A stretch of 38,680 nucleotides of DNA, from assembly GCA_964435355.1 (NCBI GenBank), contig CAYSYL010000002.1:1-38680 (forward strand). Reading direction: 5' to 3'. This document shows positions 1,972 through 7,525 of the stretch, one piece after another. The translations under genes were made by a program, and so were the position numbers. Each line of letters opens with the position of its first letter. The stretch's first letter is position 1. The notes beneath the pieces were generated by a model. The model was not told the DNA's origin, did not search any database, and worked only from the letters and a program-made list of their open reading frames with translations. This stretch comes from an uncultured Candidatus Peribacteria bacterium. GTDB lineage: Bacteria; Patescibacteriota; Gracilibacteria; UBA1369.

Positions 1972-3123
1972 ATGAAGTCAGTTGAAATTGGCATTTATAG
2001 ACAACAAAAAGAGGGTTTTAAAGCTTTTATTCCTAACCCCTTCCCTCCAAAGGAAGGTTTTGACTTTGATGCGGGAATATTAAAGAAAAACGATCAAGCC
2101 ACAAGATTGCTCGGAAAACTTGATGGTATCACAAAACTATTACCTGACGCCGATTTCTTCCTTTTAATGTATTTGCGCAAAGATGCTGCCTCTTCAAGCC
2201 AGATTGAAGGAACACAGGCAACGATGATCGATGCCATCGAAGCGGAAGCGAAAGTAAATACGAAGGTTCCAGCCGACGTCGATGATATTTTACACTATAT
2301 TAACGCTCTCAATTATGGGATGAAACGTGTTACGAAGGATGATTTCCCGATATCACTTCGATTCATAAAAGAACTCCATAAAAAATTGATGGATCAAGCG
2401 CGAGCCACACACTTCTCTGATCCAGGCGAATTCCGTAAAAGCCAGAACTGGATTGGGGGAACAAGGCCGGATAACGCCCGTTTCGTTCCACCTCCCGTTG
2501 AAGAAATGCGGACGGCGCTTAATGAGCTCGAAAAATTCCTGCATGGAAACGATACGACATTAACGCTCATTAAAGCCGGGCTTCTCCACGCTCAATTCGA
2601 AACTATCCATCCTTTTCTCGATGGCAATGGAAGAACCGGGCGAATGCTTATCACCTTCTATTTATGGAAGGAAGGTTTCCTCGAAAAACCTGTTTTATTT
2701 CTATCGTCATTCTTCAAAAAACACCAAGAGTTATACTACGAAAAACTGTCTAATTACCATAATGGCAAGGTTTCGGAGTGGATAGATTTTTTTCTTGATG
2801 GAGTAATAGAAATCGCAAATGAAGCTATAGACATCGTTGGCAAAATAACCGTGCTTCGCGAAAAAGACAGGCAAAAGATTCAAAAACTTGGAACTCGCGC
2901 AGTTGAGAGTGCCTCGGTAATTTTACCAAAATTGTATGCCCAACCTATCGTGAATGTGGCTCTTGTCCAAAAATGGACCGGCTACACCAGAGCAGGAGCG
3001 CAGCGTGTTATCGACCGCTTTATTGAAATGAAAATCCTTTCTCCCAAAGACGAGGACAAGAAATATGGCCAATCGTATGCTTACAAAGAGTATCTTGCCA
3101 TTTTTCAGGATAGTAAAAAGTAA
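1972..3123 (+). CDS. fic: Fic family protein (AMPylase-type), class II with N-terminal inhibitory helix and C-terminal winged-helix
   Basis: Canonical Fic motif HPFLDGNGRTGR (HxFx[DE]GNGRxxR). Inhibitory motif SSQIEG ([ST]xxxE[GN]) lies N-terminal of the core. The C-terminal region ...WTGYTRAGAQRVIDRFIEMKIL looks like a wHTH. Confidence 0.9.
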   Translation: MKSVEIGIYRQQKEGFKAFIPNPFPPKEGFDFDAGILKKNDQATRLLGKLDGITKLLPDADFFLLMYLRKDAASSSQIEGTQATMIDAIEAEAKVNTKVPADVDDILHYINALNYGMKRVTKDDFPISLRFIKELHKKLMDQARATHFSDPGEFRKSQNWIGGTRPDNARFVPPPVEEMRTALNELEKFLHGNDTTLTLIKAGLLHAQFETIHPFLDGNGRTGRMLITFYLWKEGFLEKPVLFLSSFFKKHQELYYEKLSNYHNGKVSEWIDFFLDGVIEIANEAIDIVGKITVLREKDRQKIQKLGTRAVESASVILPKLYAQPIVNVALVQKWTGYTRAGAQRVIDRFIEMKILSPKDEDKKYGQSYAYKEYLAIFQDSKK

Positions 3124-3129
3124 AATCTT

Positions 3130-3438
3130 ATGACACATTCACTGTTGTTAAAAATCGGCAATACTTACAAAGTGTCAGACTCACTAAATCGTGAATATAC
3201 GATAGTATTAGATCTATACAAAAACCATAATCATGAAAGAAAGCCCCTTTATCATTATAATGGAGAAGAAAAAGCGGATGATATAGTTATCACTATTCAA
3301 AACGACGATCCTCCACCTTATCCGTCACCGTATGCAGGAACTATTGAAAAAAAATGGCACGTTATGCGAAAGAACTGCATTTTACATTTTACCGTACTAG
3401 ATAAAACAAGCGTTAAATTGGAGTTAGAAGAAAAATAA
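3130..3438 (+). CDS. Hypothetical small protein (102 aa) co-directional with fic, 6 nt downstream
   Basis: ORF lies immediately after the fic stop. No recognisable motif. Contains a Pro-rich patch, DDPPPYPSPY. Confidence 0.45.
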   Translation: MTHSLLLKIGNTYKVSDSLNREYTIVLDLYKNHNHERKPLYHYNGEEKADDIVITIQNDDPPPYPSPYAGTIEKKWHVMRKNCILHFTVLDKTSVKLELEEK

Positions 3439-3487
3439 ATTACAGGAAATATCAAATTTAAGAAAACAAGCCCAGGCACTTGTGCAA

Positions 3488-3646
3488 CCCCATTCAAGGC
3501 AGTACTTTTTTGGAAGGCGTTTTTGGCTTATAGAAGCTCTGATTTAGAAAGCTGTTTCGGAATGAGCAGTATGGCGCAGACGCACACACCCGTGAAAGTT
3601 GAACAGCGAACTAAATATTAAGATAAGTTTTAGCAATTTGCAAAAC
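3488..3646 (+). repeat. Direct repeat R2, right copy of the pair bracketing the Fic module
   Basis: See R1 (1734-1890): same orientation, same block order and spacing. Confidence 0.6.
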
Positions 3647-3689
3647 TAAGAAAATAATCAAGCTAAGCACTAATTATCAGCCATAACCT

Positions 3690-4460
3690 TTAATCAGTCT
3701 TTGTCTGTTGATAGGATACAATCATTTCCGTAAAACAAAGAATCAAATTATAGGTTTTATCAATCCATTCACTGAAAAATTGATCAATCGGATAATATTT
3801 ATCGGCGTCTCCCCTATCTCCCGTAAGATAATTAGGTATTCTTATTTGATTGTGCACTATTAACCAGGCAGTATGAGAAGGATAGCCCGTCATATCCTTT
3901 TTCATTTGAGAAAAGTTGAATGCCTCAATTCTTGGAACCAAAGAACAGGCAAATGAGTTGTCATGAGAATTTATAGCTGCATACGTACTGATACCACCCA
4001 TGTGATGAACAATATTCCTATAGGGAAATACTTCATTTTTTACCCACTCATGGCAAATGTCCAAACAAGGCGACGGAGTAATACCCTTAGCCTGAAGCAC
4101 CTCTTTAACTTTTTGTATAAAACGCGTTTTTTGTAAAGAAACATCCGCACCCTTAAAGTCTAACCGTAAAAAATGATTAATAGTCGTTGCCATAGCATCA
4201 GCACAAGCCAGGACAGAATTTAAATAATTTTCTAATAAAAAATCGCTATAGATATCGTCTGTTTTCTTGTCTTGTAGTAAGGAATTAACCTTGAGCAATC
4301 TCCAAAATCGCATGGAAAAGTTTCCAATAAATCCACAATCCAACATACGTTCCTGCCGCTCATCTGAATGGCTTAATTCGGTAAAAGGAGGTCGATCAAA
4401 GTATTGTTTCAATTCAGGTAATCTATTGAACCAAAATGATTCACGTAAATAATTTGTCAT
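3690..4460 (-). CDS. Hypothetical protein with HEPN-like Rx4H motif (AbiD/AbiF-like RNxxxHH)
   Basis: 256-aa ORF. FPYRNIVHHMGG resembles the LRNRVAHHE signature of Abi_2/HEPN families. An upstream helix, ACADAMATTINHFL, is consistent with the HEPN first helix. The family assignment comes from memory of motifs only. Confidence 0.45.
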   Translation of the reverse strand: MTNYLRESFWFNRLPELKQYFDRPPFTELSHSDERQERMLDCGFIGNFSMRFWRLLKVNSLLQDKKTDDIYSDFLLENYLNSVLACADAMATTINHFLRLDFKGADVSLQKTRFIQKVKEVLQAKGITPSPCLDICHEWVKNEVFPYRNIVHHMGGISTYAAINSHDNSFACSLVPRIEAFNFSQMKKDMTGYPSHTAWLIVHNQIRIPNYLTGDRGDADKYYPIDQFFSEWIDKTYNLILCFTEMIVSYQQTKTD

Positions 4461-4587
4461 GACAGATTATTAAAGGAGCATAGTTACAAAACAGTTTATG
4501 CAAGCTCTTGGCAGCCGCTTCTCTCATATTTGCTGGTATTGAGTTCGCCATAATTAAGCCGTGGGAATAAGTTTATTGGGCATATAA

Positions 4588-5190
4588 TCACTTACATGAA
4601 TCATATTGTGTATTAGCTTTTTTAGCCAAATTAGATTGTGGGTAAAGCTTATAACATAGTAGCTTCAGCCCATTATCTCGATGCAAAATGAAATTTTCAA
4701 CTTGAGCATTATTACATAAAGGCCCAATAAGATGTTGGAAATTTATTCTGATATCCTCCATGGTAAGTAAGCCAGTTTTACACTGCTGGTATACATCTTC
4801 AAAACCATTTAAGTATAAGCCTAAATAGAATTCATTTTCGATATGTTCTCCATTTTGCAATTTTCGAATAACAAGAGAATTATGATCATCAAATTTATAA
4901 AAATCTTGATAAAGAGTATTAATTACATCAAAGGCTAGCTTTTTCCTCTCTAATTCCAGTTGTAAATTAGAATTATGTACTGTAGCTGAACTTATATCAT
5001 TTGCTGCTTTACTAATATCATTCGCAGTACTACTTAATTGCCAGGTTCCATATGTAAAAATACAGCCAATGAATAAGAGTAATAATTCGCCTATAGCAAT
5101 TTTCTGGTCGATCGACAATTTTCTATATTTATCCCAGCAAACAATAACTAAAATAATGATTATTAAGCCTATAAGTAAAAAGAAATTCAT
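4588..5190 (-). CDS. Small membrane protein with two N-terminal TM helices and a soluble C-terminal domain
   Basis: 200-aa ORF. Hydrophobic stretches FFLLIGLIIIILVIVCW and IAIGELLLLFIGCIFTYGTW. It lies upstream of, and co-directional with, the HEPN-like gene across a 127-nt gap. Confidence 0.5.
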   Translation of the reverse strand: MNFFLLIGLIIIILVIVCWDKYRKLSIDQKIAIGELLLLFIGCIFTYGTWQLSSTANDISKAANDISSATVHNSNLQLELERKKLAFDVINTLYQDFYKFDDHNSLVIRKLQNGEHIENEFYLGLYLNGFEDVYQQCKTGLLTMEDIRINFQHLIGPLCNNAQVENFILHRDNGLKLLCYKLYPQSNLAKKANTQYDSCK

Positions 5191-5261
5191 TCGGTATATG
5201 AAACAAAATATTTATTTTTCCATCAGTGATAAAGATATAAAAGCTAGTGAAGTATTGGCAG

Positions 5262-6053
5262 TTATACGTCTTCCAAACTCCTAGCAATCATCTCCGCAGC
5301 CTTAGCTCGTGATAACCCTTCCGTCGGCATACTACCGTCAATATCGATGCCCAAGGATTTCGCTTTATCAATATACGTTTCATACCAAACAGCAGTTTGC
5401 CCATCAGGCTTTAGGCCAAATGTTTCCAGAGCGATCTTTAAAGCTTCGACATAATTCACCTCCTGAACTGGTTTGAAAGTACCATCAGCATATCCTCCAA
5501 CAAACCCCTGCGCCTTCGCAAAACAAACGGGTTTGGTATACCACTGATCTTTTTGAATGTCCTTAAAACAGTTTTGATTATAGCTGTCATCAATTGTCGG
5601 ATACTTAGCTCCCACTACTATTTTTAAAAGCTCAGCACGGTTTAAAATCCTGAAAGGCTGATAGGTACCGTCGGGATACCCGGAAATGATATTTTTCTCT
5701 TTCAAAAGTTCAATAGAAGATTCGAAAGGAGTAGTACTATCAACGTCACTAAAAACGGATGATGGCATCGAAGGCTCAGGTGGTACAACAGGTTCCGGAG
5801 CAGGTGGTTGAATCTCGAGCTCGGAAGGAGAACCGGCGCACATCACCATCGAAGAGTAAGAAACCGAACTATTTTCCCAACCGTCCTTGCATATAACGCT
5901 ACCGTCGCTATCTGCACCCGCGCTACAATCCACTCCTCCATGCCCAGAACAGGCGCCAGAAGTTGCAAATGCAAAAGGAATAATAAAAGATACGCTCACA
6001 AAAAGCGCCACGGCTGTTAAAAGGGAAAATGGTTTCTTCATATAGTGCAACAA
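5262..6053 (-). CDS. Secreted SLH-domain (S-layer homology) protein
   Basis: N-terminal signal/TM segment and a Cys-rich and Pro-rich linker. Repeated SLH signatures follow: FSDVD...ISGYPDGTYQP...NRAELLKIVV and FKDIQKDQWY...GGYADGTFKP. Confidence 0.8.
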   Translation of the reverse strand: MLHYMKKPFSLLTAVALFVSVSFIIPFAFATSGACSGHGGVDCSAGADSDGSVICKDGWENSSVSYSSMVMCAGSPSELEIQPPAPEPVVPPEPSMPSSVFSDVDSTTPFESSIELLKEKNIISGYPDGTYQPFRILNRAELLKIVVGAKYPTIDDSYNQNCFKDIQKDQWYTKPVCFAKAQGFVGGYADGTFKPVQEVNYVEALKIALETFGLKPDGQTAVWYETYIDKAKSLGIDIDGSMPTEGLSRAKAAEMIARSLEDV

Positions 6054-6326
6054 AAATATTAAAATTCTCTAAAATATTAATCTAACAAGATTTCCTTCAA
6101 AAGAAGGATGCGATGACAAAAAGTAGAAATGATGAATAAAAACTTGTCGAATTTGAAGTATAATTAAGGCAACTTTAATTACTTCAATGAAAAGCGTTCG
6201 AAACAAATGGCATTGGCCAGAGCTAAAACTGGAATTCTTTAGATCAAACTTTGCCGAAGTAAAAGGATTTTTTCAGGAACAATACGACGCTCCAGAGGCT
6301 CTTAAAGAATCCAGGCGGGGATATAC

Positions 6327-6403
6327 TGGTCGGGGTACTGGGACTTGAACCCAGGGCCTCACCCACCCCATGGGTGCGCGCTAGCCAACTGCGCCATACC
6401 CCG
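6327..6403 (-). tRNA. tRNA-Pro (anticodon GGG), CCA encoded
   Basis: Manual cloverleaf on the minus strand: acceptor CGGGGTA/TACCCCG, D arm GCGC-AGTTGGCTA-GCGC, anticodon stem CACCC/GGGTG with loop AT-GGG-GT, T arm CTGGG-TTCAAGT-CCCAG, discriminator A plus CCA. Confidence 0.85.
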
Positions 6404-6487
6404 ACGTTGTGTGCCGCAGCCAGGAACAATTTTTATCTTTTCGTCGCTATGCTGGGCGCGCGGGCATCAATATACCAAAAAAATGCC

Positions 6488-7525
6488 TTATTTGAAATAT
6501 TTCACTTCGGCTGCTACGGTTTTGCCGTCGACGATTTCAATTTCGGCGTATGATTTTCGCTTTTTTCGCATATCTTTATATACTTCGAATTCGCTGCGCC
6601 AGGTGTCGGTCACTAGAATGCGCATGTTGCCATGGTTAAACTGGTTGACGCTGTGGTAATGACCTAAAATCAAATATTTTCGGTCTGCGTATTTTTTGAG
6701 GAGTAATTTGATGTTTTCCTTTAAAAATGTGTCATCATCCAATACTTCCAAACCGTGATTCCAAATGTGTCGAATGAAACGACGGAAGGGCGCACGATAA
6801 GTTGGATCGTAAAAACGCAGAAAGGGGTTCACTAAAATGTGTTTCACGATCAAATCCCGGAACATTTTTTGAGCATAGTCGTGCAGCTTTTCATTGTCAC
6901 GGAAATACTGATGACGTGGAACGAGCGCTTCTTCGCGAGGAAATTTTTTCTTCAGCTCCACCAGGTGAGTGAAGCAGGCGTAAGCTCCCCATGGAAGATT
7001 CAGGATTTTTTTTCGACGATAGTGGAGAAATGGCTTATTTGTGTCGGAGGCGAAAAAAGTGTCGATCAGGTGACCGTGTTCGAAGTGTAAATCTCCTGTG
7101 TCATAGCCATAACCGAAATGGACGTGGGTATGATTTTCGAGGGAAGACCGGAGTTTATTCTGAACGGAAGGCCAGATGAGATCCGCGTCGTGATTGCCGA
7201 TGACGAAAAATATCTGATGGTTTTCGTTTTTGAGAAAATTGCGGAGTGCTTCAAATACGGCTGGATGACTTCGGATTACTTCATCCATTTTCCACAGCGA
7301 AATTTCTTCGGTAATGTAACGAGGATATTTGCCGTGGTAGGCCATTTTTAGAAAGTCGAAACTGTCTCCGTTGAAAAGAAGGGTAATTTTTTGATCTGTA
7401 TGCTCTTTTGCTTCTCGACTGATGAAAGTGAAAAAACGGATGAGGTCGGTATCGTCTGAAAAATCGTCAGTAATGTCTCCGCGGCCCATTTCTACGTCGC
7501 TGATGGCAAAAATTTTTTCTTTCAT
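6488..7525 (-). CDS. Metallophosphoesterase (calcineurin-like phosphoesterase) family protein
   Basis: Motifs ISDVEMGRG, NGDSFDFL, VIGNHD, FEHGH and LGHYH match the conserved metallophosphoesterase blocks. Its ATG overlaps the stop of the upstream gene (ATGA). Confidence 0.75.
   Translation of the reverse strand: MKEKIFAISDVEMGRGDITDDFSDDTDLIRFFTFISREAKEHTDQKITLLFNGDSFDFLKMAYHGKYPRYITEEISLWKMDEVIRSHPAVFEALRNFLKNENHQIFFVIGNHDADLIWPSVQNKLRSSLENHTHVHFGYGYDTGDLHFEHGHLIDTFFASDTNKPFLHYRRKKILNLPWGAYACFTHLVELKKKFPREEALVPRHQYFRDNEKLHDYAQKMFRDLIVKHILVNPFLRFYDPTYRAPFRRFIRHIWNHGLEVLDDDTFLKENIKLLLKKYADRKYLILGHYHSVNQFNHGNMRILVTDTWRSEFEVYKDMRKKRKSYAEIEIVDGKTVAAEVKYFK

What the first reader, a model, noticed from the sequence alone, without database searches (positions are those of the whole stretch)
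3690..5190. Candidate two-gene defence/abortive-infection module: 2-TM protein followed by a HEPN-like (RNxxHH) protein
Two co-directional minus-strand genes of unknown function sit in the tRNA-adjacent island between the Fic module and an SLH gene. The downstream 256-aa protein has YRNIVHH, matching the Rx4-6H catalytic signature of HEPN RNases and specifically the RNR[IV]AHH form of AbiD/AbiF-type proteins. The upstream 200-aa protein has two N-terminal TM helices plus a soluble domain, an architecture typical of membrane-disrupting effector or sensor partners. I do not recognise this exact pairing as a named system. The 127-nt gap means they may or may not be co-transcribed.
Basis: inference. 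Interest (0 to 1): 0.6.

Follow-up and report, generated by a model that had tools for sequence, protein, structure and literature searches.

The report
Stand-alone divergent HEPN gene, unrelated membrane neighbour
The 256-residue gene is a rare, very divergent member of the HEPN family of predicted RNA-cutting toxin/defence proteins. The membrane-protein gene next to it is a separate accessory gene found beside it only in this genome, so this is not a new two-gene defence system.

Summary
Both ORFs exist as described: 3690-4460(-), 256 aa, with YRNIVHH; 4588-5190(-), 200 aa, with two N-terminal hydrophobic helices; 127-nt gap.

The HEPN reading holds, but not as AbiD/AbiF. The 256-aa protein belongs to a tiny family (23 hits among 1.84 billion representative proteins). 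R148, H152 and H153 are invariant in all 14 close members; D88 and N47 in all 17 aligned. A profile-profile comparison links the family (96.9%, E 1.4e-10) to proteins matching Pfam HEPN_Cthe2314, the only Pfam family recurring among members. Predicted helices fit the published HEPN layout, but Foldseek found no HEPN structure, so the fold is unconfirmed.

The two-gene module is not supported. The two families co-occur only in this window. Several HEPN homologues sit alone between attC-like elements in integron-type cassette arrays, or beside AbiL, OLD, Mrr or PIN/ATPase genes. The membrane-protein family, seen in Peregrinibacteria-type genomes, follows other partners (HsdR, AAA_15 ATPases) and probably exposes a four-cysteine domain outside the cell.

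Most likely this is an autonomous HEPN RNase toxin/abortive-infection gene in a small low-GC defence islet beside a SoFic-type Fic gene. It is a new member of a known kind, of modest interest.

The parts
3690..4460 (-). 256-aa stand-alone HEPN-like protein, a divergent sister clade of Pfam HEPN_Cthe2314 and a predicted metal-independent RNase
   Evidence: ORF. The family alignments are. hhalign to the Cthe_2314-like group gives 96.9%, E 1.4e-10. PF18730 is the only Pfam family that recurs among members, 8 of 17. The AF2 model has pLDDT 80.6 and pTM 0.82.
4002..4019 (-). Codons for R148-N149-I150-V151-H152-H153, the R-x4-H motif (predicted active site)
   Evidence: Read. R148, H152 and H153 are invariant in 14 of 14 close members, and N149 in 13 of 14. 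The motif lies at the C-terminal end of predicted helix 131-158, which is where the HEPN motif sits according to PMC3710099.
4197..4199 (-). Codon for D88, an invariant acidic residue in predicted helix 69-97 (the HEPN helix-2 position)
   Evidence: D88 is invariant in all 17 sequences, including the Cthe_2314-like group.
4461..4587 (.). 127-nt spacer between the two genes, unique in the genome, with no promoter or terminator signal above chance
   Evidence: There are no tandem repeats and no Rfam match. A 24-bp near-palindrome at 4448-4471 spans the HEPN start codon (I15).
4588..5190 (-). 200-aa membrane protein: two N-terminal TM helices, a helical linker and a conserved C-terminal four-Cys helical domain (about residues 83-200, encoded at 4591-4944) with no known family. 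It is an independent accessory gene.
   Evidence: ORF. The family of 12 has invariant C137, C159, C179 and C199. No Pfam, PADLOC, PHROG or PDB match was found. Topology heuristic. Contexts. AT-rich relative to host DNA in every locus.
1972..3123 (+). Context: Fic-domain gene of the SoFic defence type, convergent with the HEPN gene
   Evidence: PADLOC SoFic, E 2.2e-111, full length. Pfam Fic_N plus Fic. A 72% identical orthologue lies 2.4 kb upstream of a homologue of the 200-aa membrane protein in L012.
6327..6403 (-). Context: tRNA-Pro(GGG) at the edge of the accessory islet
   Evidence: ARAGORN and Rfam tRNA.

Best explanation
The 256-aa gene encodes an autonomous, single-gene HEPN protein from a very rare, divergent sister clade of the Cthe_2314-like HEPN family.

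Inferred mechanism, by analogy with characterised HEPN RNases: R148, N149 and H153 (or H152), together with D88 from the second core helix, form a metal-independent RNase site. The site is probably completed by dimerisation. It cleaves cellular and/or phage RNA when activated, causing growth arrest or abortive infection. The clade-specific N-terminal segment and the 65-residue insert between core helices 3 and 4, which carries an invariant PSHTAW block in the close clade, are the likely regulatory or sensing parts.

The gene sits in a small low-GC accessory islet next to a SoFic-type Fic gene in a Peregrinibacteria-type genome.

The 200-aa gene upstream is a separate accessory gene. It encodes a membrane-anchored protein whose conserved four-Cys helical domain probably faces outward. 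Elsewhere it follows other defence-type genes. Its position next to the HEPN gene here is a one-off result of defence-island shuffling, not a functional pairing.

Shown: the ORFs, motif conservation, the profile link to HEPN_Cthe2314, the lack of co-occurrence, and the defence or cassette contexts. Inferred: RNase activity, the toxic or abortive role, the membrane topology, and independence in this particular genome.
For: HEPN homology:
- An exhaustive profile search found only 23 proteins. The distant ones carry WRDALIHR-type R-x4-H motifs.
- Those distant proteins match PF18730: P0037 scores 28.1 bits against a cut-off of 27.1, and 5 of 6 group members match.
- hhalign of the close family against that group gives 96.9%, E 1.4e-10, over 209 columns.
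- PF18730 is the only Pfam family hit by more than one member, 8 of 17.
- R148, H152 and H153 are invariant in the 14 close members. D88 and N47 are invariant in all 17.
- The predicted helices match the published HEPN layout: acidic residue in helix 2, insert between helices 2 and 3, motif at the end of helix 3.

Autonomy:
- The two families co-occur only in the window.
- Homologues in L005, L020 and L022 are flanked by elements with GCTAACAG ... CGTTAGC terminal boxes. L020 reads element | HEPN | element | 314-aa gene | element | OLD nuclease.

Defence context:
- AbiLi plus RloB lie upstream in L003. OLD lies in L020. PIN_12 plus an AAA_15/21 ATPase lie in L001. Mrr_N lies in L002. SoFic lies in the window.

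Independence of the 200-aa gene:
- Its homologues sit 3 nt after an AAA_15 ATPase gene (L008), overlap the end of hsdR by 20 nt (L012-L014), or lie near NYN or ABC-ATPase genes (L009).
- Its GC is 8-21 points below its host DNA in every locus, whereas HEPN homologues match their low-GC hosts.
Against: - Foldseek of a confident model (pLDDT 80.6, pTM 0.82) found no HEPN structure in PDB or BFVD. The best hits were generic helical bundles at E > 0.5.
- The window protein itself scores only 13.7 bits on PF18730, so the HEPN assignment is transitive.
- Single-sequence comparisons with PF18730 hits from the same phylum were not significant.
- Alignments place the Arg of the close clade one column away from the Arg of the Cthe_2314-like group. 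Which His is catalytic, and the exact spacing (x3 or x4), are therefore unresolved.
- No PADLOC model matches, and no family member has been tested experimentally.
- In 4 of 8 informative HEPN loci the gene just upstream encodes some unrelated predicted membrane protein. This leaves a small opening for a variable membrane partner.
- Only about 8 independent contexts were available, and several contigs are short.
Confidence: 0.55

Rival explanations
1. The two genes form a real two-gene system, with a membrane sensor or effector plus a HEPN RNase. The membrane partner would be replaceable by non-homologous membrane proteins in other lineages.
For: The genes are co-directional and 127 nt apart, with no terminator-like site between them. 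In 4 of 8 informative HEPN loci a co-directional predicted membrane ORF lies just upstream: the window, L001 (63 aa), L002 (167 aa, 4 TM) and L021 (82 aa, 8-nt gap).
Against: The four upstream proteins share no sequence similarity. Four of 8 is not above the background of 26-39% hydrophobic ORFs in this genome. Cassette-borne homologues have no partner between their flanking elements. The closest homologue of the membrane protein (73% identical, L007) and all the others lack a HEPN neighbour. The two genes differ in GC, 35.4% against 29.7%. The conserved domain of the membrane protein is predicted to lie outside the cell, away from a cytoplasmic RNase.
Confidence: 0.12
2. The HEPN gene is a selfish toxin or addiction element rather than an anti-phage gene. 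It would stabilise cassette arrays or islands, as toxin-antitoxin cassettes do in chromosomal integrons.
For: Homologues are carried as integron-type cassettes. HEPN domains are common toxins of toxin-antitoxin systems and of integron cassettes (PMC3710099, Table 1).
Against: No antitoxin candidate is conserved next to the gene. There is no MNT nucleotidyltransferase, no conserved small ORF, and no tandem-repeat RNA. The neighbours are mostly anti-phage genes. Integron cassettes are also known to carry phage-defence genes (bioRxiv 10.1101/2024.07.02.601719).
Confidence: 0.12
3. The protein has a HEPN-derived fold but is not an RNase. It could be an RNA- or ligand-binding regulatory protein, with the R/H residues kept for binding.
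For: Many HEPN families are non-catalytic (PMC3710099). The clade has large extra conserved blocks, such as PSHTAW and PN..TG..GD, that are not part of the HEPN core.
Against: The full catalytic signature (R, a polar residue after it, H, and an upstream acidic residue) is invariant in a family that is otherwise only 23-45% identical. This is the pattern of active HEPN RNases. The distribution is sporadic and the context is a defence island.
Confidence: 0.13
4. The protein is not HEPN at all. It would be an unrelated all-helical protein whose R..H motif and weak profile matches are coincidental.
For: There are no structural matches to HEPN. The direct Pfam score is below threshold. The comparison profiles are shallow, with 6 sequences each.
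Against: The HMM search reaches the Cthe_2314-like proteins at E 4e-6 to 5e-4 in a library of 1.84 billion sequences. hhalign gives 96.9%. The same Pfam family recurs in 8 of 17 members, while every other family is hit once. The motif, the Asp and the helix positions all fall where HEPN predicts.
Confidence: 0.08

Closest known systems
Cthe_2314-like HEPN family (Pfam PF18730; Anantharaman et al. 2013, PMC3710099)
   Same: Both have a conserved R-[ND]-x3-H motif at the end of a long helix and an invariant Asp in the preceding helix within a 'FLD/CTD' block. Both have a 'G..I.L' loop after helix 2 and are stand-alone proteins of about 230-260 aa. They are linked by profile-profile comparison (96.9%) and by recurrent weak Pfam hits. 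The 2013 survey detected no conserved operon for Cthe_2314, and none was found here.
   Different: The window protein scores 13.7 bits against a cut-off of 27.1. Identity to the bridging proteins is only about 18%. The close clade has a double His (HH), a longer insert between core helices 3 and 4 with an invariant PSHTAW block, and its own N-terminal segment. Neither family has been characterised experimentally.
AbiD/AbiD1/AbiF abortive-infection proteins (Abi_2, PF07751)
   Same: Both are single-gene, stand-alone HEPN proteins of similar size. Both occur in defence islands and R-M neighbourhoods (PMC3710099).
   Different: No Abi_2 match in Pfam and no Abi model match in PADLOC was found for any of the 17 family members. 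The relationship is at superfamily level only.
Integron-cassette HEPN proteins and other toxin or defence cassettes of integrons
   Same: Several homologues (L005, L006, L020, L022) are single genes lying between 125-135-nt elements with inverted terminal boxes, GCTAAC...GTTAGC. These elements sit in one orientation and form arrays with other accessory or defence genes.
   Different: The window copy has no such element. No integrase was seen on the short contigs. The terminal box GTTAGCA fits the canonical GTTRRRY only in part. The sequence family differs from the solved integron HEPN (3jrt), and no PDB relative was found.
HEPN-MNT toxin-antitoxin pairs
   Same: Both involve a predicted HEPN RNase toxin. 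An AMP-transferase-type enzyme (Fic) happens to be encoded nearby in the window.
   Different: There is no MNT nucleotidyltransferase gene next to any family member. Fic is absent from all other HEPN-family loci. The HEPN protein here is about twice the size of the HEPN toxins of MNT pairs.

Membership tests
HEPN superfamily | Conserved R-x4-6-H motif | tested here: met
   R148-N-I-V-H-H153 is the only such match in the protein. R148, H152 and H153 are invariant in 14 of 14 close members. The bridging group has R-[DTE]-x3-H at the same place. A one-residue alignment offset leaves x3 versus x4 unresolved.
HEPN superfamily | Polar residue (N/D/H) immediately after the Arg | tested here: met
   N149 in 13 of 14 close members and H in the other. 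The criterion is taken from PMC3710099.
HEPN superfamily | Conserved acidic residue in core helix 2, upstream of the motif | tested here: met
   D88 is invariant in 17 of 17 sequences and lies in predicted helix 69-97. The usual E-x3-[KR] form is not present.
HEPN superfamily | [quoted passage not shown] | tested here: inconclusive
   The secondary structure of the AF2 model fits: H1 35-65, H2 69-97, insert with helix 112-124, H3 131-158, H4 225-254. Foldseek retrieved no HEPN structure from PDB or BFVD.
HEPN superfamily | Metal-independent RNase activity dependent on R and H | not testable with these tools
   This needs expression, mutagenesis and an RNA cleavage assay.
Pfam HEPN_Cthe2314 (PF18730) | Score at or above the curated cut-off (27.1 bits) | tested here: not met
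   The window protein scores 13.7 bits, E 0.063. Only the distant relative P0037 passes, at 28.1 bits. The link is transitive: hhalign gives 96.9%, and 8 of 17 members hit PF18730 at E <= 1.
AbiD/AbiF (Abi_2, PF07751; PADLOC Abi models) | Match to the family model | tested here: not met
   No Abi_2 hit at E <= 1 for any of the 17 members. No PADLOC Abi model was hit.
Conserved two-gene membrane-protein + HEPN module | The two families co-occur as neighbours in other genomes | tested here: not met
   tblastn of both proteins against all fetched loci shows they are together only in the window. Five informative loci for each family lack the other. Neither was found in 60 related genomes.
HEPN-MNT toxin-antitoxin | Adjacent minimal nucleotidyltransferase antitoxin gene | tested here: not met
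   No nucleotidyltransferase domain was found in the window neighbours or in the neighbours of homologues.
Integron gene cassette (window copy) | attC-like element with inverted terminal boxes flanking the gene | tested here: not met
   The elements that flank homologues in L005, L020 and L022 have no counterpart in the window. The 127-nt spacer is unique in the genome.

The most novel reading that the evidence does not exclude
The most novel reading not excluded is that the HEPN clade works with an interchangeable, non-homologous small membrane protein encoded just upstream. The membrane protein would act as an envelope-stress or phage-entry sensor that gates a cytoplasmic HEPN RNase, and the window pair would be one instance. 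A related possibility is that the 200-aa family is a new outward-facing four-Cys membrane module that acts in phage exclusion and rides behind diverse defence NTPases in Peregrinibacteria.
Probability: 0.1. Interest if true: 0.6.

Novelty: new member of a known kind. Interest (0 to 1): 0.3.

Why it matters
The result adds a rare, previously unmodelled branch to the HEPN superfamily. About 20 proteins were found among 1.84 billion representatives, and no Pfam or PADLOC model captures them at threshold.

The branch gives some context to the uncharacterised Cthe_2314-like family, for which the 2013 survey found no context at all. Here its relatives sit in defence islands and travel as single-gene integron-type cassettes.

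For candidate-phyla-radiation (CPR) bacteria, whose small genomes have few recognised defence systems, it marks a small defence islet of SoFic, a HEPN gene and an unknown membrane protein.

It also removes a false lead. The attractive 'TM + HEPN' pairing is a chance juxtaposition and should not be catalogued as a system.

The membrane-protein family, AT-rich in every host and found behind HsdR or AAA_15 genes, is an uncharacterised defence-island passenger that may deserve its own test.

Tried and rejected
1. Direct family scans of both proteins against Pfam, NCBIfam, PHROGs and PADLOC found nothing above threshold.
2. Foldseek of both AF2 models against PDB, and of the HEPN model against BFVD, returned only generic helical noise.
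3. HMM searches of PDB sequences with alignments A1-A4 found nothing.
4. hhalign of A1 and A3 against single PF18730 hits from the same phylum was not significant.
5. Viral contig scans for both families found no relatives, so a phage origin is not supported.
6. Tests for a type III-like RNA antitoxin or other RNA element were negative: no tandem repeats and no Rfam hit in 3300-6500.
7. The promoter and terminator scan of 3300-5500 gave counts at or below shuffled expectation, so co-transcription cannot be decided.
8. The idea that Fic acts as an AMPylating antitoxin for the HEPN protein, by analogy with MNT, was rejected. Fic is absent from all other HEPN loci.
9. The idea that the 200-aa protein is itself HEPN, since it has R148-x4-H153, was rejected. 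The His is Tyr in 2 of 12 members, the residue after Arg is non-polar, and hhalign to the HEPN profiles gives 0.2%.
10. The 3818-aa hit P0032 is a low-complexity repeat protein matching through 'YFWRV' repeats. It is spurious.
11. The upstream membrane ORF pattern, 4 of 8, is not above background.
13. The search for related loci with the broad alignment A3 failed because no conserved stretch was available. It was repeated with A1.
Full report
**Observation**

The ORF listing confirms two co-directional minus-strand ORFs, 3690-4460 (256 aa) and 4588-5190 (200 aa), separated by 127 nt.
- They lie between a Fic gene (1972-3123, +; Pfam Fic_N plus Fic; PADLOC SoFic at 2.2e-111 over the full length) followed by a 102-aa ORF, and an SLH-domain gene (5262-6053, -).
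- tRNA-Pro(GGG) is at 6327-6403.
- YRNIVHH is residues 147-153, with R148 to H153 encoded at 4002-4019.
- The 200-aa protein has two N-terminal hydrophobic helices.
- The genes have 35.4% and 29.7% GC, against 40.4% for the 1.42-Mb genome.
- Neither family was found in 60 related genomes of the same family or order, 52 of which are of high quality.
- Homologues carry Peregrinibacteria or Peribacteria labels.

**Is the 256-aa protein HEPN?**

Direct scans are negative or sub-threshold. Pfam gives only HEPN_Cthe2314 at 13.7 bits (cut-off 27.1), and PADLOC, NCBIfam and PHROGs give nothing.

The family is tiny.
- Five relatives at 39-44% identity were found among 5.8 billion clustered proteins.
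- Twenty-three proteins were found in an exhaustive profile search of 1.84 billion representatives. One of them, P0032, is a spurious repeat-protein hit.

Conservation within the family is strong.
- PYRNIVHHMG and PSHTAW are invariant in the closest six sequences.
- Across 14 close-clade members R148, H152 and H153 are invariant and N149 is nearly so.
- Across all 17 aligned sequences N47, D88, W139 and P194 are invariant.
- R148-x4-H153 is the only R-x4-6-H match in the protein. What counts is the conservation, not the mere presence of the motif.

The most distant hits give the link to a named family.
- P0036, P0037 and P0040 carry W-R-[DT]-x3-H-R.
- P0037 passes Pfam's cut-off for HEPN_Cthe2314 (28.1 bits). 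P0036 scores 25.1 bits.
- Five of six members of that group hit the family.
- A profile-profile comparison of the close family with this group gives 96.9% probability, E 1.4e-10, over 209 columns.
- When all 17 sequences are scanned one by one at a lax threshold, HEPN_Cthe2314 is hit by 8. Every other Pfam family is hit by only one.

The published description of HEPN (PMC3710099) makes four predictions.
- The R-x4-6-H motif lies at the end of core helix 3.
- A polar residue follows the Arg.
- A conserved acidic residue lies in helix 2.
- Inserts are frequent between helices 2 and 3.

The AF2 model (pLDDT 80.6, pTM 0.82) has helices at 35-65 and 69-97 (containing D88), a short insert helix at 112-124, a helix at 131-158 (ending in R148-H153), and a helix at 225-254. 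This is the predicted layout, with an unusual 65-residue insert before the last helix.

Against this, Foldseek found no HEPN structure in PDB or BFVD. Sequence searches of PDB were empty.

I conclude, at about 80%, that the protein is a divergent sister clade of the Cthe_2314-like HEPN family. It is not a member of AbiD/AbiF. No Abi_2 or PADLOC Abi model matches any of the 17 proteins.

The alignments place the Arg of the two groups one column apart. Whether H152 or H153 is the catalytic His remains open.

**Is it a two-gene module?**

I fetched every context I could.
- Eight independent loci for the HEPN family: L001-L006 and L020-L022.
- About six independent loci for the membrane-protein family: L007-L014, L018 and L019.

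tblastn with both proteins against all loci shows the two families together only in the window. Five HEPN loci have 1.1-6 kb of upstream sequence and five membrane-protein loci have more than 3.5 kb downstream, so the absence is informative. The closest homologue of the 200-aa protein (73% identical, L007) has no HEPN neighbour.

The neighbours of the HEPN homologues vary.

| Locus | Neighbouring genes |
|---|---|
| L003 | AbiLi ATPase plus RloB, upstream |
| L020 | unknown 314-aa gene, then an OLD-family nuclease |
| L001 | PIN_12 and an AAA_15/21 ATPase |
| L002 | Mrr_N protein |
| L021 | transporters |

Four homologues are single-gene cassettes.
- In L005, L006, L020 and L022 the 17-mer GTTAGCAGSCATAGTAA lies 10-15 nt before the start codon, once per locus.
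- The genes are bracketed by 125-135-nt elements with inverted terminal boxes, GCTAACAG ... CGTTAGC.
- L020 reads element | HEPN | element | 314-aa gene | element | OLD nuclease.
- L022 reads element | beta-barrel protein | element | HEPN.
- This is the layout of integron cassette arrays, in which units are normally single genes. Such arrays are known to carry phage-defence genes (bioRxiv 10.1101/2024.07.02.601719).
- Fold energies of the elements are unremarkable, and no integrase was visible on these short contigs.
- A HEPN gene that moves alone argues strongly for autonomous function.

One residual pattern deserves mention. In 4 of 8 informative loci the co-directional gene just upstream encodes some predicted membrane protein: the window, and L001 (63 aa), L002 (167 aa) and L021 (82 aa). 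These proteins are unrelated to one another. The two loci of the bridging group have soluble upstream proteins. The background rate of hydrophobic ORFs in this genome is 26-39%. The pattern is not significant, and I keep it as a 12% rival.

**The 200-aa protein**

- Its family has 12 members at 44-61% identity overall. The closest, P0008, is 73% identical over the conserved C-terminal part.
- The N-terminus is variable, with one or two TM helices. The C-terminal helical domain is well conserved (pLDDT above 90 for residues 110-200) and carries four invariant Cys.
- It matches no family in Pfam, PADLOC, PHROGs or NCBIfam, no solved structure, and not the HEPN profiles.
- In every member the last TM helix is preceded by a Lys/Arg-rich stretch and followed by a stretch poor in them. 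By the positive-inside rule, which is an inference, the Cys-containing domain is outside the cell in both one-TM and two-TM members.
- Its gene follows an AAA_15 ATPase gene by 3 nt in L008 and overlaps the 3' end of an hsdR-like gene by 20 nt in L012-L014. It lies near NYN and ABC-ATPase genes in L009, and near an AAA_21/AAA_15 gene in L007.
- In L012 a Fic gene 72% identical to the window's lies 2.4 kb upstream.
- In all loci the gene is 8-21 GC points below its surroundings, whereas HEPN homologues match their low-GC hosts.
- It therefore looks like a separately mobile defence-island passenger of unknown function. I would guess an envelope-exposed role such as exclusion or sensing, at low confidence.

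**Between the genes**

- The 127-nt spacer is unique in the genome.
- It has no tandem repeats and no Rfam match.
- Promoter-like and terminator-like sites in 3300-5500 are no more frequent than in shuffled sequence.

**Mechanism proposed**

Shown:
- a conserved HEPN-type catalytic signature in a rare, sporadically distributed, horizontally mobile single gene;
- a location among defence genes.

Inferred from established knowledge of HEPN RNases (PMC3710099):
- a metal-independent endoribonuclease, probably a dimer with a composite site;
- an enzyme that is latent until triggered and then cleaves RNA to stop growth or abort infection;
- clade-specific N-terminal and insert regions as the candidate regulatory parts.

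**Novelty and score**

- Stand-alone HEPN toxin or Abi genes in defence islands and integron cassettes are a well-known kind. This is a new, unmodelled branch of one of the least characterised HEPN families.
- The proposed new pairing does not hold.
- Interest is modest, at 0.3.
- The scan had not noted these proteins elsewhere.
- Earlier notes on the same window bear on context only. They cover a Fic module flanked by weak direct repeats, which I partly reproduced, the island edge at tRNA-Pro, and a cassette-like array at 28.6-38.2 kb.

Noticed in passing
L005 26-42 and 842-972; L006 296-312; L020 17-122, 914-1043 and about 2052-2175; L022 215-341 and 1015-1149: Homologues of the HEPN gene lie in integron-type cassette arrays. 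Elements of 125-135 nt with inverted terminal boxes (GCTAACAG ... CGTTAGC) separate single genes, and a conserved GTTAGCAGSCATAGTAA lies just before the HEPN start codon. L020 carries an OLD-family nuclease as a neighbouring cassette. No integrase was seen on these short contigs.
   Followed up: partly
window 4448-4471: A 24-bp near-perfect palindrome, AATAATCTGTCATGACAAATTATT on the minus strand, is centred on the ATG of the HEPN gene. It could be an operator or a start-codon hairpin, or chance in AT-rich DNA. Homologues show nothing similar at their start codons.
   Followed up: partly
window 4432-4454 and 4586-4608: An inverted repeat of 23 nt, 83% complementary, brackets the 127-nt spacer. 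One arm covers the stop of the 200-aa gene and the other covers codons 3-10 of the HEPN gene. It is one of 35 such pairs in 5 kb, so it may be chance.
   Followed up: no
L012 1497-5579; window 1972-5190: A Fic gene 72% identical to the window's lies upstream of an hsdR-like gene in L012. The 3' end of that hsdR-like gene overlaps a homologue of the 200-aa membrane protein by 20 nt. Fic and the membrane-protein family are thus near each other in two otherwise non-syntenic loci.
   Followed up: partly
L008 5001-5618, L009 5001-5507, L018 2-511, L012 5001-5579, window 4588-5190: Genes of the 200-aa membrane-protein family are 8-21 GC points below their host DNA in every locus, for example 26.5% against 47.7% in L008. 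This suggests a recently transferred or persistently foreign gene in Peregrinibacteria-type genomes.
   Followed up: partly
window 4588-5190, residues 148-153 of the 200-aa protein: The membrane protein has its own R148-x4-H153 (RINFQH). The Arg is invariant, but the His is Tyr in 2 of 12 homologues and the residue after Arg is non-polar. hhalign to the HEPN profiles gives 0.2%. This is probably a coincidence.
   Followed up: yes
The second copy lies just downstream of the HEPN stop codon.
   Followed up: partly
window 3130-3438 (+): The 102-aa ORF directly after Fic has no match in Pfam, PADLOC, NCBIfam or PHROGs, and no counterpart next to the Fic orthologue in L012. Its function is unknown.
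   Followed up: no
L029 1578-1742: The 54-aa ORF that abuts a Cthe_2314-like HEPN gene looks by eye like the C-terminal fragment of an IS transposase. This would suggest insertion-sequence activity next to that homologue.
   Followed up: no
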